Virus record (IMG/VR): IMGVR_UViG_3300034063_000636
Location: 44,215 to 108,214 of that record
DNA length: 64,000 bases
DNA from: a virus
Strand: one strand, 5' to 3'
Part shown: positions 2,355 to 63,845 of the stretch, in pieces
Numbering within the stretch: position 1 is the first letter of the stretch
Layout: every line of letters begins with the position of its first letter
Program-made: the position numbers and the translations under genes
The notes under the pieces: generated by a model
Database searches by the model: none
What the model was told of the DNA's origin: nothing
The model's input: only the letters and a program-made list of their open reading frames with translations

Positions 2355-2357
2355 ATA
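2351..2357 (+). promoter_or_regulatory. T4-type late promoter box (ATAAATA)
   Basis: ATAAATA overlapping the gp5 stop codon, upstream of a GAGG RBS and the gp25 start. Confidence 0.55.
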
Positions 2358-2377
2358 ATCATTTAGAGGACTCATAA

Positions 2378-2770: not shown

Positions 2771-2771
2771 C

Positions 2772-4847: not shown

Positions 4848-4848
4848 T

Positions 4849-8292: not shown

Positions 8293-8301
8293 GGACCTAA
8301 T

Positions 8302-21088: not shown

Positions 21089-21903
21089 AATTTTTTGATT
21101 TTTTTAAACCTAAAGAAACATTTAATGATTCGATTGACGATGAGATTAAGGAAATCTCAAACACTTCTGTTGTTCAATCGACTATTGGTAGAAACAAGTT
21201 AGAATTTATCGATTCATCAGAACTCGTATTTGCTAGTTTACCAATTCAATTAGCAAAAGATGTTCCTGTAAACTCGCAAGCACATGTAGAAAAGCTCGGA
21301 AATAAGTTCACATTTCCAGTCTGCCCTGGCATGTTTGACTATTCGCGACTTGGCTACATTGTTCCAGCCTGGTCAGACTATCATTTTAAGATAAATAAAG
21401 CTGGATGTGCTGCATTAGTTGGTGGGGGACAAAAAGCATCTCCATTTAAGCCTCCAGTTCCGATGGCAACTGATGTTGTCGATGGTCTTTTTAAATTAAG
21501 CGACGGAATTCCACTTAAAACATATAATATCAATTCTCCTTGGAAAATATTTTCTTACGACAAAGATATATCAGCATTACTTCTTCCTGCTTGGTATCAT
21601 GCAGACGTAGAGTTTTTAGATAATTTTTATGTTTATCCTGGAGTTGTTGATTATAATACATTTCATACTATGAATGTCATTCTTTCTCCAAAAAGAAAGT
21701 GTGAGTATACGATTAAAGCGGGAGATCCTTTATTACACGTCATTCCGTTTTATAATAAACAAATTGAATGTGGTTATGGACCACCAAACATAGAACAAAA
21801 AAGCATATTATCATACGATCCTAAAATCCACGAAACGCAATTTTATCGAAAGAATCATATGATTAAAAAGAGTTTCGCACTAGAAGAAAGCAATAAAGAA
21901 TGA
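21085..21903 (+). CDS. Hypothetical protein, paralog of 20360..21088
   Basis: CPGMFDYSRLGY, PGVVDYN and IKAGDPLLHVIP align with the motifs of the upstream gene. Confidence 0.55.
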   Translation: MKFFDFFKPKETFNDSIDDEIKEISNTSVVQSTIGRNKLEFIDSSELVFASLPIQLAKDVPVNSQAHVEKLGNKFTFPVCPGMFDYSRLGYIVPAWSDYHFKINKAGCAALVGGGQKASPFKPPVPMATDVVDGLFKLSDGIPLKTYNINSPWKIFSYDKDISALLLPAWYHADVEFLDNFYVYPGVVDYNTFHTMNVILSPKRKCEYTIKAGDPLLHVIPFYNKQIECGYGPPNIEQKSILSYDPKIHETQFYRKNHMIKKSFALEESNKE

Positions 21904-22847
21904 AGATATTTGTAAGCATATGCTCATACAGAGACCCTCTGTTAGTATACACTCTAAAAGCATTAATGCAGACCAAGTCTGCAATTACAGAAGTTGTGTA
22001 CGGCATATTTGAACAAAATGAAAAAGAAAATAGTTTAGAAACTCTATTTCCAGATCTAGTCGCCAGAAGCGATGTAAAATATAAACGAATCGATCCACAA
22101 TACTCGGAAGGTGTTGGTTGGGCTCGAAATATTAATGCTCTCCAGTTAACTGACGAGGATTTTTATTATCAGATCGACTCTCACATGGTTTTCGATAAGA
22201 ATTGGGATCGCGATTTAATTAACGATTATAAAGAAGGCTGTAGAGCGATCGAGTCAAACAGAGTCATTATCAGTTCGAACTGTAAAAATTTCGAGATGGT
22301 CGATGGTAATGTCGTTTTAGAGCATGGCATGGACTATACATGCAGAGCAAGATTCTATCAGTTTAATCCAAATCTTTGGCTTTTTGCTCACGGCGAACAT
22401 ATTCCTCCAACTGAAACCGTGATGCCAGCGATACACATCTTTGCTGGAAATATGTTTACACACTCTGATTGGGTTCGAAATGTCGGAATCAATCCTAGAA
22501 TATTCTTTCATGGAGAGGAGCAAGCGATAACTCTCTCATCGTTTGCTGCAGGATATCGATTTTTCCACGGAAAGAGGATGTCGTGCTATCACTATAAAGG
22601 ATCTAATGAACATACATCAAAGCAGGACTTTAAACCTGTTGTTCCTTTAGAGATCATTGAAGAGAGAAAACGTAGATCAGAAATTGAATTTAGAGCATTT
22701 TTAGACTCTCTCGAGGACGATTTACTCGAGGAATACCGAGTCTACTCTGGCGTGAATTATATAAATAAGAAAATAGAAGAACGTGCCATAACCCGAGTGA
22801 TTAAACCAAGCATCGATATTGACTGGGAAGTAGGCGATTCTGAATAA
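21900..22847 (+). CDS. GlcNAc transferase, Gnt1/GT60-like (Skp1-hydroxyproline GlcNAc transferase family)
   Basis: IFVSICSYRDP, GVGWAR, YYQIDSHMVFDKNWD and FFHGEE match family motifs (IFVSIxSYRD, QIDSHMxF..WD, FxGEE). Confidence 0.85.
   Translation: MKIFVSICSYRDPLLVYTLKALMQTKSAITEVVYGIFEQNEKENSLETLFPDLVARSDVKYKRIDPQYSEGVGWARNINALQLTDEDFYYQIDSHMVFDKNWDRDLINDYKEGCRAIESNRVIISSNCKNFEMVDGNVVLEHGMDYTCRARFYQFNPNLWLFAHGEHIPPTETVMPAIHIFAGNMFTHSDWVRNVGINPRIFFHGEEQAITLSSFAAGYRFFHGKRMSCYHYKGSNEHTSKQDFKPVVPLEIIEERKRRSEIEFRAFLDSLEDDLLEEYRVYSGVNYINKKIEERAITRVIKPSIDIDWEVGDSE
22760..22767 (+). promoter_or_regulatory. Canonical T4 late promoter TATAAATA
   Basis: Exact TATAAATA inside the 3' end of the GT gene, about 105 bp upstream of the next structural gene. 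Confidence 0.6.
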
Positions 22848-51841: not shown

Positions 51842-52426
51842 ATGACAACAGTTGTATCTACTAAAATCGGCGGAACAAATCTCCAAACTATTGGAACTGC
51901 TGGTCAGGCTCTCAAAGTCAATTCAACTGGAACTGGGCTCGAATGGGGTTCGGTTGGTGGAGCAATCAACGTTGCTAACGAAATTACCACTAATAGTTCG
52001 GGTTACTATATTCTATTCACGAATGCAGCCTCTGGCAATATCACATCAACCAACGTTGCCACTTCGAAGTTATACTTTAATCCTAGTACTGGTACTGTAA
52101 GTGCAACGAATTTCAATTCTCTTTCTGATCTACAAGAAAAAGAAAACGTTGAGACGCTAAAAAATGCAGTAGAAATGCTTGCTAATATTCGTGGCGTTCG
52201 TTTCACATGGAAAGAAACAGGCGCACCATCTCTTGGTGTTATTGCTCAAGAATTATTACTAGTTGCACCAGAATTAGTTACACGCAACGAACAAGGTGTT
52301 CATACTGTAAACTATGCAGGTCTCAATGCTATTCTTATTGAAGCAATGAAAGATCTTCACTCACAAGTACAATTACTTCGCACTGAAATTGAGAATCTAA
52401 AGAATGGCAATTCTACAGGCGGGTAA
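51842..52426 (+). CDS. Mini tail fibre with C-terminal peptidase S74 (intramolecular chaperone) domain
   Basis: LSDLQEKENV (S-x4-K)...F.WK.....GVIAQE...PELV...VNY..L...LIEA.K, then a coiled coil. Confidence 0.85.
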   Translation: MTTVVSTKIGGTNLQTIGTAGQALKVNSTGTGLEWGSVGGAINVANEITTNSSGYYILFTNAASGNITSTNVATSKLYFNPSTGTVSATNFNSLSDLQEKENVETLKNAVEMLANIRGVRFTWKETGAPSLGVIAQELLLVAPELVTRNEQGVHTVNYAGLNAILIEAMKDLHSQVQLLRTEIENLKNGNSTGG

Positions 52427-54860
52427 CACAGTAGTTGGCGACGCAGGTAACGGCAATTTCAATGTAGTGTCTGTTACGAGTAATGGGTACATCGAAATCC
52501 CAGATACCACGCCATCCGTCAATGCAAATTCGAATTCTTTTATAACTCTCGGTGCTACTGGCGTCACAATTAATAACGCCATGTGGTCTTGGTGGATCAA
52601 GCCACTAGTCCTTCGCGACAAAAACGCATCCAATCATTGGACGTATGCTTGCTTCACACAATCTAATGGAGCGGTTGGCGTCTCTATTACCAATCATAAT
52701 ACTGCAAACACAACGCAGTATACAATTACACCAGCAAATACTTTCTCAAAAGACGATCACAATGCCAGCGCAGTTGTAACTGGCAATAACAAAGCCTATA
52801 TTTTTATTCAGGGTCGTACGGCAAATTCTGCAGTATTAAATACAAAAAATATGTTTTATATTGAATTTAATGAAGGCGAAAGTCCAGCAAATAAAAATCT
52901 TGTCAACGTAACTTTCTCGACTGCCCCAACAGCAACGGCATCGTTCTATCCAAACGCATTTAATGCCAACGGAAAGTTTATTTTATTGGGTCGTCAACAA
53001 GTTTTAAACACTGCGAATCAATGGCTGGCTGTAACTGGTGATTATCCTGTTGCGAATTTGTCGACGCCAAAAGGATTGTTTAAGTCAATTTACACTTGGC
53101 CATATTTTGCAATTAGAAGAAGTTACGAAGATAAAGATATTTTAAATTTTGCTCAGGGCTGGCATCCATACGATTCGACTTCCAATAATAACATTTACTT
53201 TGGTAAAATTCTTCGTAACGGAAACACTGCCCCATGGGATGTGTATGCGAATAATGCAGTCATCGGTAATCTAACTGATGGAACTGGATTGCCATTTGAC
53301 GAAGCAGACTTTGAATTAGTGTTCACCAATTCAGGGGCAAATAATTCTGTTCGTTTGTTTGACGTTCATGACGATGCTGTAGCATTCGGAACATTCAATA
53401 AACTTGTTAATATAATTCAATATAAAGTCGCATATAAAACAGGAAATACTTGGTATACAAAAACTGTTTGCACTGGTGGATATCCATTCCACGGTGTTCA
53501 AGTTCGTGACTATTATGGCGGCATGGCAATCTCTGAGAGAGACAAATACACTATCACAGTTGCCGCTGAAGTAAACAATCAATGGGATATTCGTGAATAC
53601 AAGAGCACCGACAGCGGCAATACTTGGATTTTAAACAATAGCACAAGAGCAGACATCTATCAAGTTGCTGGTCGTCCAATGGACGAAGTCTTATCTGAAG
53701 ATGCACATATCTATAACAGCACAGATCAACTTGGATCATTTAGTTGGTTCGGATCTTATGACGGTTCAGACTTCACCACATTTAGCACGAACGTTGCATC
53801 AACAAGATTAGTCGGAACAGGAAGACAAAATCCTACTATCGATGCAAATCAAAAAGGATTTTTCAGCACTGTAAACACACCTTCAAGTGGATATATTGAA
53901 GTCAGTTCAGTATCATTATCGCATGGCTATGCAAGCGGTGGACTCACACTCTTACCATTCCCAGCTCAGTCTGATCGTATCGATAAGTTTCCGTTTGCAT
54001 CAGATACAAATGCAACAACGATAGGTTATTTGTCGCAACAAATTAGAGGTGCAGCTGGCATATCATCAACAACAAATGGATATACTGCTGCTGGTCAGTT
54101 TGCTTCACCTGCGATTTTACCTGCAAATCAAACTTCTATTGGTAGAATTGAACGATTCCCATTTGCTGTAGACATTGGCTCAACCTATGTTGGCGAGCTT
54201 GTAACAAAAAGAGCTTTCCCTGCTGGTTCAGAATCTTCTACACATGGATATGCAAGCGGTGGTCAGACCAATTTGCCTGCATATCCACCAGTAACTTGGA
54301 CAGCTGCAATAGAAAAATTTCCATTTGCTGCTGAGTTTGCTGCTGCCACAACTGTGGGTAATTTGACAGTAGTGCGATTTGGTGCTATGGGTCAAAGTTC
54401 AAGCACTCACGGTTATGCTTCTGGTGGTGGAACGCCTCCACCTCCTGCTCTCGTCAATGTCGCAACAATTGATAAATTTCCATTTGCGACGGATACAAAT
54501 GCAACATTTGTTGGAGATTTGACTGAAGCGAGACGTGTTGGTGCTGGCACACAATCAACCACTCATGGGTATGCTTCTGGTGGTGGACACCCCGCAACTC
54601 CTACATTATACTCAAATGTCATTGACAGATTTCCATTCTCTAGCGACACAAATGCATCAGATGTGGGTGATCTAACTCAGGCTAGAAGAACAACTGGTAC
54701 AGGTTCTTCTTCAACAACTCATGGGTATACAGCTGGTGGCTCAGATTCACCAACTTATGGAAATGTTATAGATAAGTTTTTATTTGCTGCAAGCGCGAAT
54801 GCCACAGATGTTGGTGATTTAACTCAAGCAAGAATTGACCCTGCAGGTTCACAAGGCTAA
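52404..54860 (+). CDS. BNR/Asp-box domain fused to a six-bladed Kelch-like propeller
   Basis: DDHNAS, WPY and STDSGNTW (Asp-box); six GY..GG...I(D/E)(K/R)FPF...VG.LT..R repeats. Confidence 0.7.
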   Translation: MAILQAGNTVVGDAGNGNFNVVSVTSNGYIEIPDTTPSVNANSNSFITLGATGVTINNAMWSWWIKPLVLRDKNASNHWTYACFTQSNGAVGVSITNHNTANTTQYTITPANTFSKDDHNASAVVTGNNKAYIFIQGRTANSAVLNTKNMFYIEFNEGESPANKNLVNVTFSTAPTATASFYPNAFNANGKFILLGRQQVLNTANQWLAVTGDYPVANLSTPKGLFKSIYTWPYFAIRRSYEDKDILNFAQGWHPYDSTSNNNIYFGKILRNGNTAPWDVYANNAVIGNLTDGTGLPFDEADFELVFTNSGANNSVRLFDVHDDAVAFGTFNKLVNIIQYKVAYKTGNTWYTKTVCTGGYPFHGVQVRDYYGGMAISERDKYTITVAAEVNNQWDIREYKSTDSGNTWILNNSTRADIYQVAGRPMDEVLSEDAHIYNSTDQLGSFSWFGSYDGSDFTTFSTNVASTRLVGTGRQNPTIDANQKGFFSTVNTPSSGYIEVSSVSLSHGYASGGLTLLPFPAQSDRIDKFPFASDTNATTIGYLSQQIRGAAGISSTTNGYTAAGQFASPAILPANQTSIGRIERFPFAVDIGSTYVGELVTKRAFPAGSESSTHGYASGGQTNLPAYPPVTWTAAIEKFPFAAEFAAATTVGNLTVVRFGAMGQSSSTHGYASGGGTPPPPALVNVATIDKFPFATDTNATFVGDLTEARRVGAGTQSTTHGYASGGGHPATPTLYSNVIDRFPFSSDTNASDVGDLTQARRTTGTGSSSTTHGYTAGGSDSPTYGNVIDKFLFAASANATDVGDLTQARIDPAGSQG

Positions 54861-55948
54861 TGGCAATTACAATCAATAATATAACCGTTATCGATGATAG
54901 TTCAAATGCAAATTTGACGCAAGTGTCAATATCATCTTTAGGATATATGATCGCTGGTGCTGCGAATACAACACCACCGCATGCAGGAACATTATATGGA
55001 TATGCTTCTGCTGGAATTTATCCACTCAGATCTCCGCCGCCAGTATACAATCAAACAATTGAAAGATTTCCGTTTGCTACAGATACAAATGCAACATCAA
55101 TTGCAAGCGCGCAATTAAAAAGAAGAAGAGGTGGGTCTTGTTCTTCAGAATTAGCAGGTTATGCAGTTAGTGGGGACTCTACAACAGAATCTAGCCCACT
55201 CCCACCTCAAATGGGTTTAGCATATTACTTTAATATTGAAAAATTTAATTTTGCCACTGAAGCGCCATCAGCTGGCGTTGGTAATCTACAATTTGTTCGA
55301 GTCAATGGCGGTGTAGGTGTTGCATCGCCAACTCATGGATATGTTGGTGGGATGAAAATATATAATGAAGTCCCTGTCGACATTGAAAGATTTTCTTTTG
55401 CAAATGAAGCAGAAACAGCAATTATTGGTGGTATGACATATTATCGTCAGGGTCCATGTGAAGCAGCATCTTTAACTGATGGATACATTATGAATGGAAC
55501 ATTGTTAGGTTCTGGTCCACCAGCAACTATCTTGACAAATATAATTGAAAAGTATCGTTTTTCATCCGAAACAGATTCAGCTTTGGTTGGAGAAACAACA
55601 CGCGCAAGATGGCTTGTGATTGGAGCGTCTTCACCAACACATGGTTATGCAATGGGCGGGGTTGCAAATACTCCTGTTGTACGATATAGAACAATTGACA
55701 AAATGTCATTTGCAGCTGAGGGAACGTCAACTTATGTTGGTGATCTTTCATCAAATAACGCAAGTGCATGTTCATCATCTAGCGCAACGCATGGATATAT
55801 GCTTGGCGGCGCAACGAGCAATAATCCTCCAGCACCAGTGACAGCGACAAATGCAATTGATAAATTTCCTTTTGCTACTGATTCCAATGCTACTGATATT
55901 GGGGATTTGACAGAACCTAAATTCCAATCTAATGGGTTTATAAATTGA
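54860..55948 (+). CDS. Six-bladed Kelch-like propeller protein
   Basis: Six repeats of about 50 aa; N-terminus similar to that of 52404. Confidence 0.75.
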   Translation: MAITINNITVIDDSSNANLTQVSISSLGYMIAGAANTTPPHAGTLYGYASAGIYPLRSPPPVYNQTIERFPFATDTNATSIASAQLKRRRGGSCSSELAGYAVSGDSTTESSPLPPQMGLAYYFNIEKFNFATEAPSAGVGNLQFVRVNGGVGVASPTHGYVGGMKIYNEVPVDIERFSFANEAETAIIGGMTYYRQGPCEAASLTDGYIMNGTLLGSGPPATILTNIIEKYRFSSETDSALVGETTRARWLVIGASSPTHGYAMGGVANTPVVRYRTIDKMSFAAEGTSTYVGDLSSNNASACSSSSATHGYMLGGATSNNPPAPVTATNAIDKFPFATDSNATDIGDLTEPKFQSNGFIN

Positions 55949-55973
55949 TTTTTAGTTGACTTTTTGTTATAAT
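55945..55973 (+). promoter_or_regulatory. Sigma70-type promoter with extended -10
   Basis: TTGATT (55945-50), 17 bp spacer ending TGt, TATAAT (55968-73); upstream of ATG 55992. Confidence 0.75.
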
Positions 55974-55991
55974 ATAGTTTTTGGGTAAATA

Positions 55992-56819
55992 ATGAACAAA
56001 TTATTCTTCTGTGGCGGATTGCCTCGCACTGGTTCTACAGTGCTTATGAATATCCTGCAGCAAAATCCAAGAATATTTACAACAGGCACTTGTGCTTTGC
56101 CCGATCTCTTGCATCAGCAAGTTTTAATCAAGTCTCGTTATCGCGAGCAATTTCAAGCAATGAGTTTGGAGCAAGCCGATAAAGCCATGTACGGATTAAT
56201 TCATGGAGCAACGAAGGGATGGTTTGAAGCACTTACCAACAAACCTGTCGTAATATCCAAGAATCGTTCTTGGTCAAATCTATTTCATTTATATCCAGAT
56301 AGCAAGTATATTTGCATGGTTCGTGATCTTAGAGATATTATTGAGAGTTTCGAGAAAATAAATCAACGAACTCTTGCTCTTCATTCTTTTGCCGACGATA
56401 ATGCTCTTGTTCCTGCCATGTCTGAGTCTGAGAAGTTTGGGTATTATTTTAAATCATTAAATGTTTTGTCTGATGCATTAGCGAACGATGTTACTAGAAT
56501 GATGGATGTATTCAAGAAAAATCCATCTAAAGTTTTGTTTATTCGATTTGAAGATTTTACAAAAGATCCAATCTATATTCTTAAGAAAGTCTACAATCAT
56601 ATAGGCGAAGAATATTATTCACATGATTTAGAAAATATCAGTCAATCAGTTTTGTTCGAACATGATCATGCATATTTTAAAGAACGTGCTGATCATCAAA
56701 CTGCTCCATCTTTTCAATATTATAAAGAACCACAGAGAACATTTTCTACTCGCTTTCAACAGGAAGTTTTAAACAATTATAAATGGTTTTACGAAGGGTT
56801 TTATCCAGATGCATCCTAA
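55992..56819 (+). CDS. PAPS-dependent sulfotransferase
   Basis: 5'-PSB loop GLPRTGSTVL, 3'-PB motif MVRDLRDIIES and IRFEDF..DP. Confidence 0.87.
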   Translation: MNKLFFCGGLPRTGSTVLMNILQQNPRIFTTGTCALPDLLHQQVLIKSRYREQFQAMSLEQADKAMYGLIHGATKGWFEALTNKPVVISKNRSWSNLFHLYPDSKYICMVRDLRDIIESFEKINQRTLALHSFADDNALVPAMSESEKFGYYFKSLNVLSDALANDVTRMMDVFKKNPSKVLFIRFEDFTKDPIYILKKVYNHIGEEYYSHDLENISQSVLFEHDHAYFKERADHQTAPSFQYYKEPQRTFSTRFQQEVLNNYKWFYEGFYPDAS

Positions 56820-57372
56820 TCAACACAATATTTTTTCTGTTCCTATTTGGGGATATATAATTAATAGCGAGAAATATCACTCGAGCGATTATCTAGATTT
56901 AATTTCACATCTAGAAGAAACAGAGCCATCTAAAAAGAAAAGTAATTTTGGTGGGTGGCAATCTAGAAGTGATCTTCATAAAGAAGGATTGTTCCAAGAG
57001 TTTAAAAAGGTTATATTAATTCTTGCAAATGATATTGCTAAATCGCAAGACCTACCAGAATTACATTTAATCAGTATGTGGGCGAACATAAATTACAAAC
57101 ATTCATTTAACGCAGCGCATACACACGAAGGAATATTATCTGGTGTGTTTTATTTGAAGACTCCACCCAACTGCGGCAAATTAATACTCGAGAGCCCAGC
57201 AGTAAGAGCCGATACTAGTCCATATAAAATTAGAAATTATCCAGTTGAACCAAGCCCATTAAGTTGTATTATATTTCCAAGTTGGCTTTCGCATTATGTT
57301 GAACCAAATATGAGTGATGAGAAGAGAATTAGTTTGAGTTTTAATTTTGATATTAAGAGAGAAATATCATGA
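56809..57372 (+). CDS. Putative 2OG-Fe(II) oxygenase (TIGR02466-like)
   Basis: WANIN....N..HTH....SGVFY...FPSWL.H.V.PN.S...RISLSFN. Confidence 0.82.
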   Translation: MHPNQHNIFSVPIWGYIINSEKYHSSDYLDLISHLEETEPSKKKSNFGGWQSRSDLHKEGLFQEFKKVILILANDIAKSQDLPELHLISMWANINYKHSFNAAHTHEGILSGVFYLKTPPNCGKLILESPAVRADTSPYKIRNYPVEPSPLSCIIFPSWLSHYVEPNMSDEKRISLSFNFDIKREIS

Positions 57373-58610
57373 GTGTAAAAGAGCATTTCGATAATAACGG
57401 ATTTGTAATCCTATCTAATGTCTTGCCAAAAGAAAATTGTGAACAATTAGTCACTTACATGTTTGATCTTCTCAAGCAGGGTAAACTTGTGAAAGACGAG
57501 CAATGCCCACTGAGTGACTCTGTTTATGGAGATCCCACATTCGATGAACTATTGCAAAGATTTGCCAAGCCGATTGGTGATCATCTAGGCAAAACTCTTC
57601 TCCCAACATATACCTATGCTCGAATCTATCGAACTGGCGAGGTACTGAAAAAACATAAAGATCGTCCAGCCTGTGAGATTAGCGCGACCATGACGCTTGG
57701 ATTCGACGCTAAACATCTTTGGAAGATCTTCTTTGATGAAGAAAAAGAGATTCCAGTCGATCTTGATATTGGAGAGATGGCAGTTTATGCTGGATGCGAT
57801 ATCTTACATTGGCGTCCAGCGTTTAAAGGTAACTGGCACATTCAAGTATTCTTTCATTATGTTGATGCGAATGGTCCATATGCATCTCATGCAAAAGATG
57901 GTCGTGAGAAGTTTGGTGTAGATAAAGTCAAAAATGTTCTTCCCAAAACAGAGAAGCAAGACTTTAAGTTTCCAAAACCGATATTCAATACCATTATTAT
58001 TCCGAGCACTTTAGATAATACTTTTCCTGGATATTATCCGATCAACAGTCAAAACATTCCAGAGTTAAAGTTTACTGATAAAGAATGCGATACGATACTT
58101 AAAATGCTCAACGATGCATATCCATCGACAGCAGGTGTTGGTGGATCGAAAGAAAATAGTCGTATTTCTAGAGGTATTCGCTCAGCCAATATCTATATCC
58201 TAGAAAACGACGAAGAAAACCATTGGATCTTTCAGAAAGTCGCAAACATTGTATCGTTTGCGAATGAACATCATTTTCAATACGATTTAACTGGAATCAC
58301 TCATGGAATTCAGTTAATTGAATATTCCTCTGACTTCGACGTTAAGGGTCATTACGATTGGCACGTTGATGCTGGAAATGGTGAGCCAGTGACTCGAAAG
58401 ATCTCTTTCACGGCTCAATTAAGCGATCCCAGTGAATATGAGGGGTGCGAGTTAGTTATAAATAATCATGGAACAGAAGTCGTTGCAACCAAAGAGAGAG
58501 GTTCGGTTCATTTGTTCCCAAGTTATATGACGCATAAAGTGACTCCGATTACGAAAGGAAATCGTTATGCATTAGTCATTTGGATTCATGGATCTAGGAG
58601 ATTTAGATGA
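57369..58610 (+). CDS. Tandem two-domain 2OG-Fe(II) oxygenase
   Basis: Domain 1: YARIY...LKKHKDRPACEIS...LHWR. Domain 2: HYDWHVD..RKIS..QLSDP..YEG...HKVTPITKG.R. Confidence 0.85.
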   Translation: MSVKEHFDNNGFVILSNVLPKENCEQLVTYMFDLLKQGKLVKDEQCPLSDSVYGDPTFDELLQRFAKPIGDHLGKTLLPTYTYARIYRTGEVLKKHKDRPACEISATMTLGFDAKHLWKIFFDEEKEIPVDLDIGEMAVYAGCDILHWRPAFKGNWHIQVFFHYVDANGPYASHAKDGREKFGVDKVKNVLPKTEKQDFKFPKPIFNTIIIPSTLDNTFPGYYPINSQNIPELKFTDKECDTILKMLNDAYPSTAGVGGSKENSRISRGIRSANIYILENDEENHWIFQKVANIVSFANEHHFQYDLTGITHGIQLIEYSSDFDVKGHYDWHVDAGNGEPVTRKISFTAQLSDPSEYEGCELVINNHGTEVVATKERGSVHLFPSYMTHKVTPITKGNRYALVIWIHGSRRFR

Positions 58611-59527
58611 GTGAGAATGAAGCGAAAGATAAAGAATTAGCCATTTTTGAGGAAATTCGCAAGGATTTGGCGCTATCCTCAGAACTCAAAGTCCCAATGA
58701 GTTATGTTTTTGGGCGAGGTACTGTAAAGGCAATACAAAGTTTCGGTAACACTTCGTTGCTTGTCAACTCTACGAAAGTCGATAAGGCGATTCAAAACGT
58801 CGAAGAGTTGCAAAGCATTTGGAATCATAGTCACTCTCAGTGGTCTTGGAAGCATCTAAATCTCAGTTATCATGCACCATATAAGAATATGCGTCAGATT
58901 GCTGCTGAGATGGCTAAAAAGAAAGCCGCATTGAACGAAGCCAAATGGCGCCATGTTGAGGTTGAGATTAAGATTCGTAAAATTGAAGAAGAACTTCAAA
59001 AAGAGGGTCTCGATTATTGGCGCGAAGTAGAATTAAAAGTTAAACTCACGAAACTTAAAGAGGGTTTGGCTGAAGGTATGAGTTACGTTGAAGGAGCAAT
59101 GAAAGACGTTCTTACGTTGAATGCTCTTTACGAAGAATTAAAAGAGAAGGTTTCTGGTTTCACTGAACATGATATTGAGAAAGAAGAAACAAAGAGTCAC
59201 CTAAAACGTTCAATTGTACAATGCATTCGTGATGTTCGTCAGTTTGGTAGTATTTCGAAAGGTGAACAAGAATACGTCGAACAGATTGGTGTGAATCCAA
59301 TGAAGTTGCAGGCAGTTCTTCGAGCCTATGTTGAAAATGAAGCCAAACAACAAACATGGGACGTAAGCGGATTGTACGAATTTGTTGATAAGTTGGTTGA
59401 CGAATTGGCTGATGTTTATAAAGTTGACGTTGCTAGAATGAAACTACAAGGATTCAGCAGCGAACCAATTGAGGAATTTTCTTATTCAAATAAGGTAGCA
59501 TTGCTCGAAAAGAAAGAGGAAGAATAA
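58607..59527 (+). CDS. Coiled-coil-rich hypothetical protein
   Basis: 306-aa E/K/L-rich helical ORF with an ATGA overlap. Confidence 0.7.
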   Translation: MSENEAKDKELAIFEEIRKDLALSSELKVPMSYVFGRGTVKAIQSFGNTSLLVNSTKVDKAIQNVEELQSIWNHSHSQWSWKHLNLSYHAPYKNMRQIAAEMAKKKAALNEAKWRHVEVEIKIRKIEEELQKEGLDYWREVELKVKLTKLKEGLAEGMSYVEGAMKDVLTLNALYEELKEKVSGFTEHDIEKEETKSHLKRSIVQCIRDVRQFGSISKGEQEYVEQIGVNPMKLQAVLRAYVENEAKQQTWDVSGLYEFVDKLVDELADVYKVDVARMKLQGFSSEPIEEFSYSNKVALLEKKEEE

Positions 59528-59857
59528 ATGCCTGTTGCAGAATACAAGTTACATAAACAAGGTCATCGTCGCCTAGTGCCAGAGTTTATCGACGATCGCG
59601 GTCACTGGTTTAACCCAAGTGATCACACCTATATTGGCTGGATTGAAGAAAATCCAGATCACTATGTGCCAGATACAATTAACTATCTTACAAAAGAGCA
59701 ATTTGTTACTCGAGCACTTGCAATACATGCTGCCAGCCCAATGCATGGCGATGATGGTGAGTCTCCAGTCGGTGGTGCTCAACTTACAAGTGAACAGGTG
59801 CAAACAGCTGCAGAATCATGGTATGATGGATTTGTAGCAAAAAATACAGCTGGTTAA
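59528..59857 (+). CDS. Hypothetical protein
   Basis: 109-aa ORF abutting the upstream stop codon. Confidence 0.7.
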   Translation: MPVAEYKLHKQGHRRLVPEFIDDRGHWFNPSDHTYIGWIEENPDHYVPDTINYLTKEQFVTRALAIHAASPMHGDDGESPVGGAQLTSEQVQTAAESWYDGFVAKNTAG

Positions 59858-59858
59858 A

Positions 59859-59987
59859 ATGGAAATTATTCTTGCTCAAAAAATATCTGAATTGGATAAG
59901 AGTGAATTGATCAATCTGCTTATGAAGTTGCAAATGAACGAGCCAGAAGCATTTAAAGCACTTCAAGAAGCAGTAGACGATCTATGA
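59859..59987 (+). CDS. Micro-protein (42 aa); not in the ORF track
   Basis: MEIILAQKISELDKSELINLLMKLQMNEPEAFKALQEAVDDL; fills the gap and overlaps the next gene by ATGA. Confidence 0.7.
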   Translation: MEIILAQKISELDKSELINLLMKLQMNEPEAFKALQEAVDDL

Positions 59988-60991
59988 TCCGTGTTCAAAA
60001 AGATAGAATACAATTTGACGATTATACTCTTTATGCTACTCCCACTGGATTTTCCTTTGACGGGAGAATAGTTGCATCAAACTTTATAAATCTTTTTCAA
60101 GGGACAATATCTGGTTATGCGAGCAGTGGATACAATGGTGGCGCATTAGCAACTATTGATAAATTTCCATTCGCAACTGATGCGAACGCAACTCCAGTTG
60201 GCAATTTAAGCCAAGCAAGATTTTTTGGTGCATCGCAATCTTCAAAAACACATGGCTATCATTCTGCAGGTTATAATGGGAGTAACGTTAACACCATTGA
60301 TAGATTTCCGTTTGCTGTAGATGCAAATGCAACAGATATTTCTGATACTACAACTTCAGTTAGATCTCATTCAGGTCAATCCTCTACAACACACGGTTAT
60401 AGTAGCGGTGGATTAACTTCGGTTGATTCTAATGTTATTGACAAATTTCCATTTAGCGTAAATCAAAACGCAACTGATGTTGGCGATTTAACTCAAGCAA
60501 GATTTGGCGTCGCTGGACATAATTCTAGCGTCAGTGGATATGTTTCTGGTGGATTAACATATCCTCCATATACTAGTAGAGACACTATCGATAAATTTCC
60601 CTTTGCCACTGACACAAATGCAGTAGATGTAGGAAACTTATCTCAAGCAAGATACTATCCAGGAGGCGTTTCTTCTGCAACAAATGGATATACTGTTGGC
60701 GGAAATTTATTTAATGGCACCCCACCAAGCGCGAGTGTTAATATCATAGATAAATGGCCATTTGCTGCCGATACAAATGCAACTTCTATTGGAACTTTGT
60801 CTCTTCAAAGATCTGGGCTTGCTGGTTCTTCATCAACAACTAATGGATATTCCACAGGCGGTCATTACGTTCCTTCGTGGCCAGGTGGCTACAGTAATGT
60901 TATCGATAAATTTCCGTTTTTTACAGATGCAAATGCAACTGATATTGGTGATTTGACTCAAGCGAGACAAAGCGTGGGGCATCAAGTATGA
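59984..60991 (+). CDS. Six-bladed Kelch-like propeller protein
   Basis: Six GY..GG...IDKFPF..D.NAT.VG.L.QAR repeats. Confidence 0.78.
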   Translation: MIRVQKDRIQFDDYTLYATPTGFSFDGRIVASNFINLFQGTISGYASSGYNGGALATIDKFPFATDANATPVGNLSQARFFGASQSSKTHGYHSAGYNGSNVNTIDRFPFAVDANATDISDTTTSVRSHSGQSSTTHGYSSGGLTSVDSNVIDKFPFSVNQNATDVGDLTQARFGVAGHNSSVSGYVSGGLTYPPYTSRDTIDKFPFATDTNAVDVGNLSQARYYPGGVSSATNGYTVGGNLFNGTPPSASVNIIDKWPFAADTNATSIGTLSLQRSGLAGSSSTTNGYSTGGHYVPSWPGGYSNVIDKFPFFTDANATDIGDLTQARQSVGHQV

Positions 60992-62010
60992 CCATTCGCA
61001 TTTACGACAATAGAATTGATTTCGGCAACTATAGTTTATCAGTTGACAACATTGGAATTTCTGTCAAATCATCTTATTCAAATTCCATGGGAACGTTGAC
61101 CGCCACTTCAATCGAAGCATTAAACTATCCATTCCAAGGAACTGTGGCAGGATATACGAGTGGAGGATGGCTTCCTCCTGGATCTAACGTTATTGACAAA
61201 TTTTCTTTTGTGTTTGCATTGTCTAATGCAACTGACGTTGGAGATTTAACTCAAGCCAGATGTTTGTTGGCGTCTCAATCATCAGCAACCTATGGTTATT
61301 CAACAGGTGGATATCTGGGACCACCATTTAGTAATGTAATTGACAAATTCCCATTTGCAATACACAGTAATGCAACAGATGTTGGTGATTTGACACAAGG
61401 TCGATATGGTCCAGTTGGTCAATCTTCAAATACTGCAGGATATAGCAGCGGTGGCATCACACCGCCAACTAGAGCAACGATCGACAAATTTCCATTTGCT
61501 GTTGATTTAAACGCCACCTCTGTTGGAAGTTTATCTCAAGCAAGATATTATTCAACTGGACATTCATCAACTACTCATGGATATACTGCTGGCGGAACCA
61601 GTTCAAATGTCATTGACAAATTTCCATTCGCATCGGACGCAAATGCAACAGATATTGGAGATATCTTATCTGCTTCTGCATATCAAATCGCCTCAGGCAT
61701 TTCTTCTCAACATCATGGTTATGTGACTGGTGGTGGTTGGCCAGGAACTGTTAGCAATGTGATTCAAAGGTTTTCATTTATCACAAATCAAAATTCTTCT
61801 GATATTGCTGATTTGACTCAAGGTAGGTACGGTGCAGCTGGAACTTCTAGTACAACTCATGGTTTCACTGCAGGTGGTGCTGTTGCGCCATATACGGTTC
61901 AGAACACTATTGATAAGTTTCCATTTTCTGCCAGCGACGGTGCATATCTTTGCGTTGATCTTGGCGATCTTACTCAATCTCGTGGATATATGAGTGGACA
62001 ACAAGACTAA
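60988..62010 (+). CDS. Six-bladed Kelch-like propeller protein
   Basis: Paralog of 59984..60991 with six repeats. Confidence 0.78.
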   Translation: MTIRIYDNRIDFGNYSLSVDNIGISVKSSYSNSMGTLTATSIEALNYPFQGTVAGYTSGGWLPPGSNVIDKFSFVFALSNATDVGDLTQARCLLASQSSATYGYSTGGYLGPPFSNVIDKFPFAIHSNATDVGDLTQGRYGPVGQSSNTAGYSSGGITPPTRATIDKFPFAVDLNATSVGSLSQARYYSTGHSSTTHGYTAGGTSSNVIDKFPFASDANATDIGDILSASAYQIASGISSQHHGYVTGGGWPGTVSNVIQRFSFITNQNSSDIADLTQGRYGAAGTSSTTHGFTAGGAVAPYTVQNTIDKFPFSASDGAYLCVDLGDLTQSRGYMSGQQD

Positions 62011-63041
62011 TGGCTATTAAAGTTTACAATAATAAAATTATGATCGGATCATACACGATTCAAGAAGGTTCAGGCGGGCTCGTGTTTGATGGATCGATCA
62101 AAGCAGAATCATTACTGCGTGAAGGATCATTTCAAGGATCGGTGGCAGGATTTGCTTCTGGTGGATACATAATGCCAGGTGGATCATCAAATGTTATTGA
62201 CAAATATCCTTTTGCTACTTCTACTTCAAATGCAACAGATCATGGAGACTTAACTCAAGGTAGATATGGCGCAACGTCTCAATCTTCTGATTTGCATGGA
62301 TATACTTCTGGTGGTGCAACTGGTGGACCTTCAACAAATACAATAGATAAATTTGCATTTGCATATGCAGGTAATGCTTCAGATGTTGGTGATTTGAGCG
62401 AGGTTGTGTACACTAGTGGTGGCAGTTCATCTAAACAATTCGGATTAGGATTTGGTGCTGGCAGCGTTTACCCAACATCAAGCAATATTATACAAAAAAT
62501 TCCCTTTTCTGTGGATAGTTTTTCATTTGATATTGGGGATTTAAGCGTAGCTCGTGGATTTGCTGCTGGTCAATCATCAACAACTCATGCATATAACTCA
62601 GGTGGGGAACCTACTAGTGGCGCAACAGCATTGAATGTTATCGATAAATTTCCAATGGCTGCTACAAGTTATGCATTAGCGTCTGATGTTGGTGATCTAG
62701 CCAGCGCATCTACTCGACACACTGGACAATCTTCCACCACTCATGGTTATTCTAGTGGTGGTGGAACTTGGCCACCTGGAACCTCAGGGGCAACAATTCA
62801 AAAATTTTTATTTGCGTCTGATTCGAATGCTACTAGCGTAGGGAGTTTAACTGCAGCTAGATGGACTGGATCTGGATCATCTTCAACTGTTGAGGGATAC
62901 ACTAATGGAGGAAATGCGCCACCCTCCTACACAAACGTCTCCACTATTGATAAATTTCCATTCTCAACTGATTTTAATGCAGTTAGCGTGGGGTCGCTTA
63001 CAGTTGCAAGAGGATTAGGCTCTGGTGGATTCCAAATTTAA
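62010..63041 (+). CDS. Six-bladed Kelch-like propeller protein
   Basis: Paralog of 59984..60991 with six repeats. Confidence 0.78.
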   Translation: MAIKVYNNKIMIGSYTIQEGSGGLVFDGSIKAESLLREGSFQGSVAGFASGGYIMPGGSSNVIDKYPFATSTSNATDHGDLTQGRYGATSQSSDLHGYTSGGATGGPSTNTIDKFAFAYAGNASDVGDLSEVVYTSGGSSSKQFGLGFGAGSVYPTSSNIIQKIPFSVDSFSFDIGDLSVARGFAAGQSSTTHAYNSGGEPTSGATALNVIDKFPMAATSYALASDVGDLASASTRHTGQSSTTHGYSSGGGTWPPGTSGATIQKFLFASDSNATSVGSLTAARWTGSGSSSTVEGYTNGGNAPPSYTNVSTIDKFPFSTDFNAVSVGSLTVARGLGSGGFQI

Positions 63042-63053
63042 ATAGGGCATAAC

Positions 63054-63060
63054 CTAAATA
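63054..63060 (+). promoter_or_regulatory. Late promoter variant CTAAATA
   Basis: Intergenic, upstream of a GAGG RBS and gp13. Confidence 0.45.
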
Positions 63061-63083
63061 TAGAATAAAAACTGAGGTCTCAA

Positions 63084-63845
63084 ATGGCATCTCCATCAAC
63101 TCGCGAACAACTTAAAGATTACGCTCTTCGTAAACTTGGATTTCCAGTTATCGACATTAATGTCGACGACGATCAATTGGAAGATCGCATTGACGATGCT
63201 TTACAAAAGTATCGTGACTATCACTACGATGGAACAGAAGAAATATATCTTGCGACTCAGTTAACTGCAAATAATCTTGCTAACGGCTACGTCGACGTCT
63301 CCGATAATATCGTCGGAATTACTCGAATTATGCCTATCACTGGCGATAGCGTCAGTTCTCAAAATGGTCAAGGATTTAACATCTTTGATATCAATTATCA
63401 GCTTCGCCTCAATGACTTCTACAGTTTAACTGCATCAAGTTACACTTACTATTACATCGCTCGCACGCATCTTGCGATGCTTGATATGATCGTGACTGGA
63501 GAAGTTCCATTTAGATATAACAAAACTGTGAATCGCGTGACAATCTACATGGACTGGAATGCAAGATTATCTGAGAATGATTATATTGTGATGCAAGCAC
63601 AAAGAATTATCGATCCGACAGTTTATACAAAAATTTATAATGATTCTTGGGTAAAAGAATATACAGCTGCACTCTTCAAGAAACAATGGGGTGCAAATTT
63701 AAGTAAGTATGCAAACTATGCACTTCCTGGTGGTTTGGTCGTCAATGGAGAAGCAATTCTCAGAGATGCAACACAAGAAGTTGAATTGCTCGAGCAGAAA
63801 CTTCGAGACATTTATGAATATCCACCAATGATGATTGTGGGATAA
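63084..63845 (+). CDS. gp13: Neck protein gp13
   Basis: LKDYALRKLGFPVIDINVDDDQLEDRIDDAL..Y..YHYDG, WVKEY..AL.K.QWG.NL.K and LPGG...NG. Confidence 0.93.
   Translation: MASPSTREQLKDYALRKLGFPVIDINVDDDQLEDRIDDALQKYRDYHYDGTEEIYLATQLTANNLANGYVDVSDNIVGITRIMPITGDSVSSQNGQGFNIFDINYQLRLNDFYSLTASSYTYYYIARTHLAMLDMIVTGEVPFRYNKTVNRVTIYMDWNARLSENDYIVMQAQRIIDPTVYTKIYNDSWVKEYTAALFKKQWGANLSKYANYALPGGLVVNGEAILRDATQEVELLEQKLRDIYEYPPMMIVG

What the first reader, a model, noticed from the sequence alone, without database searches (positions are those of the whole stretch)
52404..63041. Propeller adhesins with Pro-loaded variable loops surround a sulfotransferase and oxygenase operon
Seen: five genes encode 30 blades in total. 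The variable loop after the GG motif contains Pro in 26 of 30 by my count (e.g. GTPPPPAL, RSPPPVY, SSPLPPQ, NNPPAP, YLGPPF, TWPPGT). In their midst is a separately promoted operon with a sulfotransferase and three 2OG-oxygenase domains. Inference: these loops lie on one propeller face and are hydroxylated, then possibly sulfated, as a second modification module parallel to the GT60 one. PAPS would have to come from the host or from genes outside the window.
Basis: partly seen in the sequence, partly recalled or inferred. Interest (0 to 1): 0.8.

Follow-up and report, generated by a model that had tools for sequence, protein, structure and literature searches.

The report
Cyanophage Kelch propellers with tailoring enzymes
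A freshwater T4-like cyanophage encodes five Kelch-type propeller proteins next to its tail-fibre genes, wrapped around a conserved set of hydroxylase-like and sulfate-adding enzymes; the enzymes probably decorate the phage's own appendages, but the proposed "hydroxylate the loop prolines, then sulfate them" route gets no support from comparing many related phages.

Summary
Five genes (52404-55948 and 59984-63041) each encode a six-bladed propeller, 30 blades in all. An AlphaFold model (pLDDT 90) matches Keap1/KLHL Kelch domains. The loop after the GG motif, the Kelch B-C loop, contains Pro in 26 of 30 blades; 8-14 are expected by chance.

Between the two groups of propeller genes lie:
- a sulfotransferase whose nearest solved relatives are the tyrosylprotein sulfotransferases TPST1/2;
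- a TIGR02466-type 2OG oxygenase;
- a fusion of an HxD...H domain with a PKHD/P4H-type oxygenase;
- a coiled-coil protein;
- two small proteins.

This layout recurs in 63 independent groups of viral contigs, and also in Synechococcus phage S-SKS1 and marine virus AG-345-L05. The sulfotransferase sits directly downstream of a propeller gene in 21 of 22 groups.

The loop Pro is a family-wide trait: 84% of 1,234 loops, peaking at +3/+4 after GG. It is equally frequent with the sulfotransferase (80.5%) and without it (78.7%). It is not significantly rarer where no P4H-type gene is in view (70% against 80%, p=0.5).

The enzymes probably tailor the propellers or another virion protein. The target residue is unknown, and Hyp-sulfation is only one option. 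Iyer et al. 2010 predicted hydroxylate-then-sulfate operons in bacteria. Earlier notes of this scan describe the same kind of cassette in other genomes.

The parts
51842..52426 (+). 194-aa fibre-like protein with a C-terminal Peptidase_S74 intramolecular chaperone domain (context: marks the tail-fibre module)
   Evidence: Pfam PF13884, 1.1e-10. Homologues precede the propeller arrays in 33 related loci.
52404..54860 (+). Propeller protein A (818 aa): about 500-aa N-terminal domain of unknown fold plus a six-bladed Kelch-type propeller; 6 of 6 B-C loops contain Pro
   Evidence: Blade HMM finds 6 hits; phrog_19111, 2.6e-19; loops. The N-terminal domain has only a weak BNR_4 lead.
54860..55948 (+). 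Propeller protein B (362 aa), the most divergent of the five and the one directly upstream of the sulfotransferase; 6 of 6 loops contain Pro
   Evidence: A propeller gene lies directly upstream of the sulfotransferase in 21 of 22 independent groups.
55945..55973 (+). Sigma70-like promoter candidate (TTGATT-17-TATAAT with upstream TG) in the 43-nt gap before the sulfotransferase
   Evidence: Not conserved as such in relatives. Consensus match only.
55992..56819 (+). PAPS-type sulfotransferase (275 aa), Sulfotransfer_3, TPST-like fold
   Evidence: Pfam 3e-18. A profile of 22 homologues against PDB gives TPST1 6.7e-11 and TPST2 1e-9. AlphaFold2 pLDDT 87; Foldseek top hit TPST2, 1.2e-9, TM about 0.5. 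Conserved GLPRxGST, K90, R111 and S119.
56809..57372 (+). 2OG-Fe(II) oxygenase (187 aa), 2OG-FeII_Oxy_5 / TIGR02466 type; overlaps the sulfotransferase gene by 11 nt
   Evidence: Pfam 3.8e-19; TIGR02466 1.3e-25; phrog_81 2.8e-42; PDB 3bvc and 2rg4, uncharacterised proteins.
57369..58610 (+). Two-domain oxygenase (413 aa). The N-terminal domain belongs to the cyanophage family mislabelled 'ferrochelatase' and has an invariant HxD...H. The C-terminal domain is a PKHD/P4H-type 2OG-FeII_Oxy_3 domain.
   Evidence: Pfam 9.6e-13 for the C-terminal half; phrog_2954 4.6e-44 and phrog_61 9.6e-31; PDB PiuC 4.6e-9 and B. anthracis P4H 0.11; N-domain invariants; no PDB hit for the N domain.
58607..59527 (+). 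Coiled-coil protein (306 aa), a constant companion of the two-domain oxygenase; function unknown
   Evidence: Homologues in 38 loci next to the oxygenase. No informative family, PDB or atlas match. No match in cultured phages.
59528..59857 (+). Small protein (109 aa), a constant companion; function unknown
   Evidence: Homologues in 36 loci. No family match.
59859..59987 (+). Conserved 42-aa ORF; its stop overlaps the start of the next propeller gene
   Evidence: Translation. Full-length tblastn matches at 47-57% identity in 23 related loci besides the window's own contig L003.
59984..60991 (+). Propeller protein C (335 aa): short N-terminal beta domain plus a six-bladed Kelch-type propeller; 3 of 6 loops contain Pro
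   Evidence: N-terminal domain shared with D and E.
60988..62010 (+). Propeller protein D (340 aa); 5 of 6 loops contain Pro; this is the protein that was modelled
   Evidence: AlphaFold2 and Foldseek. More than 4,363 homologues in metagenomes. Among 44 homologues the loops are hypervariable (majority-residue frequency 0.32 against 0.70 elsewhere), and Pro is the only residue kept.
62010..63041 (+). Propeller protein E (343 aa); 6 of 6 loops contain Pro
63084..63845 (+). Neck / head-tail adaptor protein (T4 gp13-like), context marker at the downstream end of the arrays
   Evidence: phrog_211, 3.6e-41. Follows the propeller arrays in 37 loci.

Best explanation
The five genes encode six-bladed Kelch-type beta-propeller proteins of the tail-fibre/neck module of a freshwater T4-like cyanophage. 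Each has a short or long N-terminal attachment domain. Its propeller has six B-C loops that form one hypervariable face and keep little besides a Pro at +3/+4 after the GG doublet. They are most likely ligand-binding (host-binding) tips of virion appendages, multiplied by tandem duplication.

The seven genes between them are a conserved companion cassette: a TPST-like sulfotransferase, a TIGR02466-type oxygenase, a fused DSBH plus PKHD/P4H-type oxygenase, a coiled-coil protein and two small proteins. I think it most likely tailors a phage structural protein inside the infected cell before assembly. The adjacent propellers are the best candidates. The tailoring would be hydroxylation by the 2OG oxygenases and sulfation with host PAPS.

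Shown: the fold, the loop statistics, the enzyme families and the recurrent gene linkage.
Inferred: virion location, that the enzymes act on proteins at all, and which residue is modified. Hydroxyproline followed by sulfation is one possibility among several (Tyr, Ser/Thr, or a glycan) and is not favoured by the comparative data.
For: Fold and loops.

Fibre-module context:
- Baseplate genes lie upstream.
- An S74-chaperone fibre protein lies directly upstream, and gp13-like directly downstream.
- Homologues are fused to Mtd_N or LamG domains.
- BFVD structural neighbours include 'virion structural protein' of PhiPA3-like phages.

Linkage:
- Of 63 independent groups of viral contigs with propeller arrays, 36 show a P4H-type oxygenase inside or beside the array, and 19 more are truncated.
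- Relatives add further 2OG-FeII_Oxy_3 genes and a methyltransferase to the same slot.
- The sulfotransferase lies directly downstream of a propeller gene in 21 of 22 groups. 12.3 are expected for a random slot in the cassette (Monte Carlo P about 1.5e-5, not corrected for shared ancestry). This holds both when it heads the oxygenase block and when it sits alone at the far end of the second array (L032, L047, L063).
- The same adjacency is seen with sulfotransferases only about 24-27% identical, in S-SKS1 (genus Llyrvirus) and in AG-345-L05, where it lies between two 11-12-blade proteins.
- In some relatives the sulfotransferase follows the propeller gene with a 7-20 nt gap or a TATAAATA-like late-promoter motif. 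That fits co-expression with structural genes.

Enzyme type: the nearest solved relatives of the sulfotransferase are protein-modifying enzymes (TPST1/2). The oxygenase C-domain belongs to the PKHD/P4H group; its eukaryotic members Tpa1/Ofd1/OGFOD1 hydroxylate a ribosomal-protein proline (established knowledge).

Precedent in prediction: Iyer et al. 2010 (PMC2938197) proposed that bacterial operons of such dioxygenases and sulfotransferases hydroxylate and then sulfate co-encoded tail-collar or collagen-like proteins.
Against: - No direct evidence of any modification, or that the propellers are in the virion.
- Loop Pro content does not covary with the sulfotransferase, and no loop residue does.
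- Covariation with the oxygenase is not significant.
- Two near-complete genomes keep Pro loops without these enzymes.
- The two-domain oxygenase pair also occurs at 35% identity or less in more than 200 cultured cyanophage, pelagiphage and OM43-phage records that lack these propellers. The pair is therefore not specific to them.
- In cultured cyanomyoviruses, oxygenase clusters lie in the same hyperplastic region next to fibre genes, so co-location could partly reflect genome architecture.
- The position aligned to the TPST catalytic base (Glu99 of TPST2) is not acidic and not conserved in this family.
- Sulfotransferase homologues at 31-33% identity lie among GT4/GT9 glycosyltransferases with no propeller nearby.
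Confidence: 0.45

Rival explanations
1. One reading: the P4H-type oxygenase hydroxylates the Pro at +3/+4 of the B-C loops, and the sulfotransferase then O-sulfates the hydroxyproline. This would give a sulfated binding face. It is a special case of the best explanation.
For: - Pro is the only conserved feature of otherwise hypervariable loops. It is positionally fixed: 46% at +3 and 30% at +4 in 1,234 loops.
- The common contexts [A/S/T]-P-P and S-P-[S/A] resemble plant Hyp motifs (from memory).
- A PKHD/P4H-type domain is present.
- Arrays without such a gene in view show a weak, non-significant trend to fewer Pro loops (70% against 80%).
- Iyer et al. 2010 proposed hydroxylation followed by sulfation for related operons.
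Against: - Pro frequency is identical with and without the sulfotransferase (80.5% against 78.7%, p=0.92).
- Genome G003 (91% complete) has Pro in 11 of 12 loops with no sulfotransferase and no above-threshold P4H-type gene. Genome G007 (100% complete) has 6 of 10.
- The nearest solved sulfotransferases act on tyrosine.
- Hydroxyproline O-sulfation is not a known modification, to my knowledge.
- A fixed Pro in a short loop has an obvious structural reading.
Confidence: 0.1
2. The enzymes are auxiliary metabolic or secondary-metabolite genes with no virion target. They would act on small molecules or peptides, or consume 2-oxoglutarate, and they share a hyperplastic genome region with the propeller arrays.
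For: - Cyanophage dioxygenase clusters have been read as secondary-metabolite or 2OG-modulating genes (Iyer et al. 2010; Sullivan et al. 2010, PMC3037559).
- Homologous oxygenase pairs occur in many phages without propellers.
- In S-CAM8 and S-T4 they lie in variable regions beside fibre or replication genes.
- No residue in the loops covaries with enzyme presence.
Against: - The sulfotransferase keeps its place directly behind a propeller gene through rearrangements and in three distant lineages.
- Gene starts and stops overlap across the whole block, all on the same strand as the structural genes.
- The coiled-coil and small proteins that always accompany the oxygenase are found only with propeller arrays and not in cultured phages.
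Confidence: 0.25
3. The sulfotransferase sulfates a sugar, not an amino-acid side chain. The sugar would be either a glycan that phage glycosyltransferases put on virion proteins, or a host surface polysaccharide precursor.
For: - Viral homologues at 31-33% identity are followed by GT4-type and GT9 glycosyltransferases.
- AG-345-L05 has a GT1/GT4 gene in the same propeller/sulfotransferase cluster.
- A second, distant sulfotransferase in L008 sits with FkbM/RfbT-like methyltransferases, typical of sugar tailoring.
- The window itself encodes a GT60 GlcNAc-transferase next to a P4H-type oxygenase at 19776-22847.
- Heparan-sulfate 3-O-sulfotransferases appear among the weaker fold matches.
Against: - There is no glycosyltransferase inside this cassette or in most related cassettes.
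- The best sequence and fold matches are protein tyrosine sulfotransferases, well ahead of carbohydrate sulfotransferases.
Confidence: 0.15

Closest known systems
Kelch-repeat beta-propellers (Keap1, KLHL3, KLHL12 Kelch domains; phage 'Kelch-like' proteins such as those of BcepSaruman, vB_PcaM_CBB and PhiPA3)
   Same: Six four-stranded blades. The GG doublet ends strand B and is followed by a variable B-C loop. An aromatic residue sits in strand C and a basic residue before strand A. TM 0.85-0.91 to Keap1/KLHL domains. Kelch-like proteins and virion structural proteins of other phages appear among the BFVD neighbours.
   Different: No Pfam Kelch model, and no other Pfam or NCBIfam model, matches. 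Sequence identity to Kelch domains is 14-17%. The repeat has its own consensus (I-D-K-F-P-F-A-x-D-x-N-A-T-D-V-G-D-L-T-x-A-R ... G-Q-S-S ... G-Y-x-S-G-G) and lacks the Kelch Trp. The B-C loops carry a Pro at +3/+4, which Keap1 loops mostly lack (Keap1 from memory). The genes form tandem arrays of up to 11. The family is almost confined to viral contigs.
Predicted bacterial 'hydroxylate then sulfate' operons: 2OG-Fe(II) dioxygenases plus sulfotransferases co-encoded with phage tail-collar or collagen-like proteins (Iyer, Abhiman, de Souza, Aravind 2010, NAR; PMC2938197)
   Same: Several 2OG dioxygenases combined with a P-loop sulfotransferase, next to a phage-tail-type structural protein. Methyltransferases appear in some versions. 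The same logic applies: the co-encoded structural protein is taken as the substrate.
   Different: Those operons are bacterial. Their candidate substrates are tail-collar or Gly-rich collagen-like proteins, not Kelch propellers. Some encode PAPS synthetase, which this phage record lacks. The dioxygenase families named there (beta-hydroxylase, phytanoyl-CoA hydroxylase) are not the ones matched here (TIGR02466, PKHD/P4H type). That proposal is also untested, and I did not compare the sulfotransferase sequences of the two systems.
Tyrosylprotein sulfotransferases TPST1/TPST2
   Same: Best sequence-profile match (6.7e-11) and best fold match (1.2e-9). Shared 5'-phosphosulfate loop (G-x-P-R-S/T-G-S/T-T), the Lys aligned with TPST2 K158, and the 3'-phosphate motif R...S.
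   Different: TM only about 0.5. The alignment covers about 210 of 275 residues. The residue aligned to the catalytic Glu99 is Gly/Ala/Ser/Thr. The enzyme is cytoplasmic and viral rather than a Golgi membrane protein. No acidic-Tyr motif is enriched in the loops.
PKHD-type / prolyl-4-hydroxylase-type 2OG oxygenases (PiuC/YbiX; Tpa1/Ofd1/OGFOD1; Bacillus anthracis and PBCV-1 P4H)
   Same: The C-terminal domain of the 413-aa protein matches 2OG-FeII_Oxy_3, PiuC structures (4.6e-9) and, weakly, B. anthracis P4H (0.11). It also matches the NCBIfam PRK05467 models below their cut-offs.
   Different: Scores are far below the equivalog cut-offs (64 against 143 bits). It is fused to a second DSBH-like domain that is known in cyanophages only under the misnomer 'ferrochelatase'. 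Substrate unknown.

Membership tests
Kelch-repeat beta-propeller superfamily | Six (5-7) blades of four antiparallel strands closing into a propeller | tested here: met
   AlphaFold2 pLDDT 89.9. DSSP shows 6 x 4 strands after residue 50. Foldseek matches Keap1/KLHL with TM up to 0.91.
Kelch-repeat beta-propeller superfamily | Sequence motif: hydrophobic strand ending in GG, then a conserved aromatic and a conserved Trp, recognised by the Pfam Kelch models | tested here: not met
   No Pfam Kelch model, or any other Pfam model, matches at E<=0.01. The GG and an aromatic (F of I-D-K-F) are present, but the Trp is absent from the consensus. So it is Kelch-like in fold and a separate sequence family (phrog_19111, function unknown).
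Phage receptor-binding / tail-fibre proteins | Present in the virion and mediates adsorption | not testable with these tools
   Only context is available: the position between the S74-chaperone fibre gene and gp13-like, fusions to Mtd_N/LamG in homologues, and hypervariable loops.
PAPS-dependent sulfotransferases (Sulfotransfer_3) | 5'-phosphosulfate-binding loop and 3'-phosphate-binding motif on a P-loop-like alpha/beta fold | tested here: met
   Pfam 67 bits against a cut-off of 27. Invariant L-P-R-x-G-S-T, K90, R111 and S119 in 22 homologues. The fold matches sulfotransferases only.
Tyrosylprotein sulfotransferase (TPST) | Catalytic base Glu (E99 of TPST2) and a peptide-binding cleft for acidic Tyr peptides | tested here: not met
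   The aligned position is G/A/S/T and not conserved. TM is about 0.5. No Tyr or acidic enrichment in the loops of sulfotransferase-bearing loci. It resembles TPST most among solved structures, but I do not file it as a TPST.
Prolyl 4-hydroxylase / PKHD-type 2OG oxygenases | DSBH fold with HxD...H iron triad and a basic 2OG-binding residue; family model above threshold | tested here: met
   The C-terminal domain scores 49 bits against the 27-bit cut-off of PF13640. PiuC 4.6e-9.
Prolyl 4-hydroxylase / PKHD-type 2OG oxygenases | Acts on peptidyl proline | not testable with these tools
   NCBIfam equivalog models are matched far below their cut-offs. Covariation of loop Pro with the gene's presence is not significant.
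2OG-Fe(II) oxygenase (N-terminal domain of the 413-aa protein) | Recognisable DSBH family match | tested here: inconclusive
   Invariant H96-x-D98, H147, R149 and K153. Only phrog_2954 matches (labelled 'ferrochelatase'). No Pfam or PDB match better than E 0.12.
Iyer et al. 2010 hydroxylase + sulfotransferase + tail-protein operons | Conserved neighbourhood of 2OG dioxygenases, a sulfotransferase and a phage-tail-type or collagen-like protein | tested here: met
   The neighbourhood recurs in 63 independent groups. 18 of these carry both the sulfotransferase and a P4H-type oxygenase.
Iyer et al. 2010 hydroxylase + sulfotransferase + tail-protein operons | Same enzyme families (beta-hydroxylase, phytanoyl-CoA hydroxylase, FIH1-linked sulfotransferase) and substrate type (tail-collar, collagen-like) | not tested
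   I did not fetch the sequences of that paper. The Pfam families matched here differ from those it names.

The most novel reading that the evidence does not exclude
Phages of cyanobacteria carry a dedicated enzymatic tailoring layer for their host-recognition proteins. Hypervariable Kelch-type propeller tips would be hydroxylated and sulfated, and in relatives methylated or glycosylated, by phage-encoded enzymes using host PAPS and 2-oxoglutarate. Adsorption specificity would then depend on post-translational chemistry as well as on loop sequence. The sulfotransferase would be the first viral protein sulfotransferase of the TPST-like kind.
Probability: 0.3. Interest if true: 0.8.

Novelty: new variant of a known kind. 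Interest (0 to 1): 0.58.

Why it matters
If the cassette really modifies the propellers, phage host recognition in abundant aquatic cyanophages would have a chemical layer that genome-based host-range prediction cannot see. The many '2OG-Fe(II) oxygenase' and 'ferrochelatase-domain' genes of cyanophages have so far been read as DNA repair or 2OG-modulating genes (Sullivan et al. 2010); they would gain a concrete role. It would also give the untested 2010 prediction of prokaryotic hydroxylate-then-sulfate systems an accessible model. The propeller family itself has more than 4,000 metagenomic members, no Pfam model, and arrays of up to 11 genes. It is a large, unannotated class of probable phage receptor-binding modules.

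Tried and rejected
1. Megablast of the 10.6-kb region against 50,697 phage records gave no match.
2. Covariation of loop composition with the sulfotransferase gave no signal for any residue.
3. Covariation of loop Pro with P4H-type oxygenases: only 8 candidate negative groups. Two are doubtful: L054 has a PF13640 hit my local HMM missed, and L040 shares a genome with an enzyme-bearing array. The result was not significant. Three further scans seeded with divergent propellers added few negatives.
4. Identity of the coiled-coil and 109-aa proteins: Pfam, PHROGs, NCBIfam, PDB and the ESM atlas gave nothing usable.
5. The N-terminal oxygenase domain, searched as a profile against PDB, gave nothing significant.
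6. T4-type late promoter TATAAATA: two copies in the window, as expected by chance. One is inside the oxygenase gene at 58457. None lies in the gaps flanking the cassette.
7. Terminator scan: fewer sites than in shuffles.
8. RNA evidence: one metatranscriptome library holds short contigs only over 58855-59943. Two others hold nothing usable. DNA carry-over cannot be excluded, and contigs cannot rank genes.
10. Literature: no paper in the held library links cyanophage sulfotransferases or oxygenases to virion proteins. One query was malformed.
I re-ran it from references.

Full report
WHAT IS THERE. The window is the structural module of a T4-like cyanomyovirus. Baseplate hub and wedge genes lie at 3-9714. 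Long fibre-like genes follow, then a gp13-like neck gene at 63084-63845. Word matches place the same DNA in 19 lake or freshwater metagenome runs from 2016-2024, so this is a persistent freshwater phage population. The record holding the window is 108 kb and estimated 63% complete.

THE OBSERVATION. All genes from 51842 to 63845 are on the + strand, and most starts overlap the preceding stop.
- Repeats. Five ORFs (818, 362, 335, 340 and 343 aa) contain a roughly 48-residue repeat: I-D-K-F-P-F-A-x-D-x-N-A-T-D-V-G-D-L-T-x-A-R ... G-Q-S-S ... G-Y-x-S-G-G, followed by a variable loop. An HMM built from the window's repeats finds six per protein, 30 in all.
- Fold. AlphaFold2 of the 340-aa protein with 44 homologues gives pLDDT 89.9. 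It shows a small four-strand N-terminal domain, a linker, and 24 strands in six blades. Foldseek against the PDB returns Keap1, KLHL3, KLHL12 and designed Kelch propellers at E about 1e-19 and TM up to 0.91.
- Loop identity. The loop after GG is therefore the Kelch B-C (2-3) loop. In Kelch domains these loops, with the short D-A loops, form one face, the one that binds ligands in Keap1. This follows from established structure; I could not read model coordinates.
- Pro count. Loops are 14.9% Pro and the rest of the propellers 2.6%. 7.7 to 13.5 loops with Pro would be expected by chance.

THE ENZYMES.
- 55992-56819 is a Sulfotransfer_3 protein. Its PAPS-binding motifs are invariant in 22 homologues. 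A profile search of the PDB ranks TPST1 (6.7e-11) and TPST2 first, then the CurM/OLS sulfotransferases. The AlphaFold2 model (pLDDT 87) again hits TPST2 first, at TM about 0.5. The residue aligned to the TPST catalytic Glu is not conserved. I therefore call it TPST-like, not a TPST.
- 56809-57372 is a TIGR02466 / 2OG-FeII_Oxy_5 oxygenase.
- 57369-58610 fuses two domains. The N-terminal domain belongs to the cyanophage family long annotated 'ferrochelatase'. It has an invariant HxD...H...R/K pattern but no Pfam or PDB match. The C-terminal domain is a PKHD/P4H-type 2OG-FeII_Oxy_3 domain; its nearest solved relative is PiuC.
- Then come a 306-aa coiled-coil protein, a 109-aa protein and a conserved 42-aa ORF that the ORF list missed. 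The 42-aa ORF closes the apparent gap to the next propeller gene.
- A sigma70-like promoter match lies in the 43-nt gap before the sulfotransferase. It is not conserved in relatives, and the scan as a whole is not above chance.
- No APS kinase is found in the record.

HOW GENERAL IT IS.
- Size and range of the family. The propeller family has more than 4,363 members among metagenomic proteins. It matches no Pfam or NCBIfam model; its only family match is phrog_19111, function unknown. In 185,579 species genomes it appears only on five short MAG contigs.
- Layout. I fetched about 140 loci from viral contigs, called ORFs and labelled them with HMMs built from the window. They collapse to 63 independent groups. 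The usual layout is: S74 fibre gene, 2-11 tandem propeller genes, [sulfotransferase], [TIGR02466 oxygenase], two-domain oxygenase, coiled-coil, small protein, more propeller genes, gp13.
- Enzyme frequency. 36 groups show a P4H-type oxygenase, 18 of them also the sulfotransferase, and 19 groups are truncated. Relatives add further 2OG-FeII_Oxy_3 genes and a Methyltransf_24 gene in the same slot.
- Sulfotransferase position. It lies directly behind a propeller gene in 21 of 22 groups, against 12.3 expected. This holds whether it heads the oxygenase block or stands alone at the end of the second array.
- Distant lineages. The adjacency recurs with very divergent sulfotransferases in S-SKS1. It also recurs in AG-345-L05, where two 11-12-blade proteins flank the sulfotransferase, and a GT1/GT4 glycosyltransferase, a LamG protein, another oxygenase and a second sulfotransferase follow.

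- Family-wide trait. Across 211 distinct propellers (1,234 loops), 84% of loops contain Pro. Loops are 14.1% Pro and blade cores 2.9%. Pro peaks at +3 (46%) and +4 (30%) after GG.
- Conservation. Among 44 homologues of the 340-aa protein, the loops are hypervariable (majority-residue frequency 0.32 against 0.70 elsewhere). Pro is the only residue that reaches a majority.
- Sulfotransferase. Per independent group, loops with Pro are 80.5% with the sulfotransferase and 78.7% without (p=0.92). No amino acid differs.
- Oxygenase. With a P4H-type oxygenase in view the figure is 79.6% (n=36). With none within 5 kb on either side it is 70.3% (n=8, p=0.50), and two of the eight negatives are doubtful.
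- Enzyme-poor genomes. Two near-complete genomes (G003 91%, G007 100%) lack the sulfotransferase and any above-threshold PF13640 domain. They still have Pro in 17 of 22 loops.
- Conclusion. The Pro is a property of the propeller family, independent of the sulfotransferase. A dependence on the oxygenase is neither shown nor excluded.

WHAT SPEAKS AGAINST A SPECIFIC LINK.
- Homologous oxygenase pairs occur at 35% identity or less in more than 200 cultured cyanophage, pelagiphage and OM43-phage records that have no such propellers. There they lie in variable regions near fibre genes.
- Sulfotransferase homologues at 31-33% identity sit among GT4/GT9 glycosyltransferases with no propeller nearby.
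- These facts keep two rivals alive: unrelated metabolic genes in a hyperplastic region, and a glycan as the sulfate acceptor.

COMPARISON WITH WHAT IS KNOWN.
- Kelch-like proteins are known in phages.
- Iyer et al. 2010 predicted that bacterial operons of 2OG dioxygenases and sulfotransferases hydroxylate and then sulfate co-encoded tail-collar or collagen-like proteins. They read cyanophage dioxygenase clusters as secondary-metabolite genes.
- Sullivan et al. 2010 read the cyanophage oxygenases as DNA-repair or 2OG-linked genes.
- I found no paper tying them to virion proteins.
- Earlier notes of this scan report the same kind of cassette in at least 13 other genomes, with the same partial verdict. 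One of them (e1-5881365) says the loop Pro appears only where the oxygenase pair is adjacent; my sample does not bear out 'only'.

VERDICT. The gene linkage is real and broad. That the enzymes tailor the propellers or another virion protein is the best reading (about 0.45). The specific Hyp-then-sulfate chemistry is unsupported (about 0.1). I class it as a new variant of a predicted but untested kind of system.

Noticed in passing
window 59859-59987 (+): A 42-aa ORF, below the ORF-list threshold, fills the apparent gap between the 109-aa gene and the next propeller gene. Its stop overlaps that gene's ATG. It is conserved full-length at 47-57% identity in 23 related loci besides the window's own contig, so it is a real small gene of the cassette.
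   Followed up: partly
window 60958-61606: In a lake metagenome run that is not the source sample, a minor contig joins 60958 to 61606, skipping 647 nt (depth 3.9 against 6.7). This looks like recombination between the tandem paralogues at 59984-60991 and 60988-62010, giving a chimeric propeller gene in part of the population.
   Followed up: no
all 30 blades, e.g. window 60988-62010: Each blade keeps D-x-N-A-T in the turn after strand C. This is an N-x-T sequon with an acidic residue at -2, the form used by bacterial N-glycosylation. It is probably structural, and nothing here tests it.
   Followed up: no
window 52404-53900 (residues 1-500 of the 818-aa protein): A large N-terminal domain of unknown fold precedes the propeller. 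The only lead is ESM-atlas similarity to BNR_4 (PF15892) proteins at 0.83, below the tool's reliability bar.
   Followed up: partly
window 58855-59943: Short contigs from one aquatic metatranscriptome library (96-99% identical) lie only on the coiled-coil gene, the 109-aa gene and the 42-aa ORF. This is a weak hint that this part is transcribed; DNA carry-over is not excluded.
   Followed up: partly
window 19776-22847: A second enzyme block: a P4H-type 2OG-FeII_Oxy_3 oxygenase, two paralogous DUF6065-like proteins and a GT60 (PF11397) GlcNAc-transferase. This is the family of the Skp1 hydroxyproline GlcNAc-transferase. It lies just after a 649-aa repeat protein. It is the subject of other first-reader notes.
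   Followed up: partly
L008:1169-4696: In a related contig a second, distant sulfotransferase (23% identical) heads a run of genes three of which match methyltransferase families, one of them FkbM/RfbT-like. The run lies upstream of the propeller array and looks like a sugar-tailoring set.
   Followed up: partly
L146 (IMGVR_UViG_3300007538_000089), about 10001-11143 and beyond: One ORF carries 18 blade matches, i.e. a triple propeller in one polypeptide. AG-345-L05 has 11-12-blade proteins. The family therefore exists as single, double and triple propellers.
   Followed up: no
cultured cyanophage records (S-T4, S-CAM8, ACG-2014f and others): The N-terminal domain family of the 413-aa oxygenase is annotated 'ferrochelatase' in many GenBank records. 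Its invariant HxD...H pattern and its constant pairing or fusion with a 2OG oxygenase suggest a DSBH oxygenase and a misnomer.
   Followed up: partly
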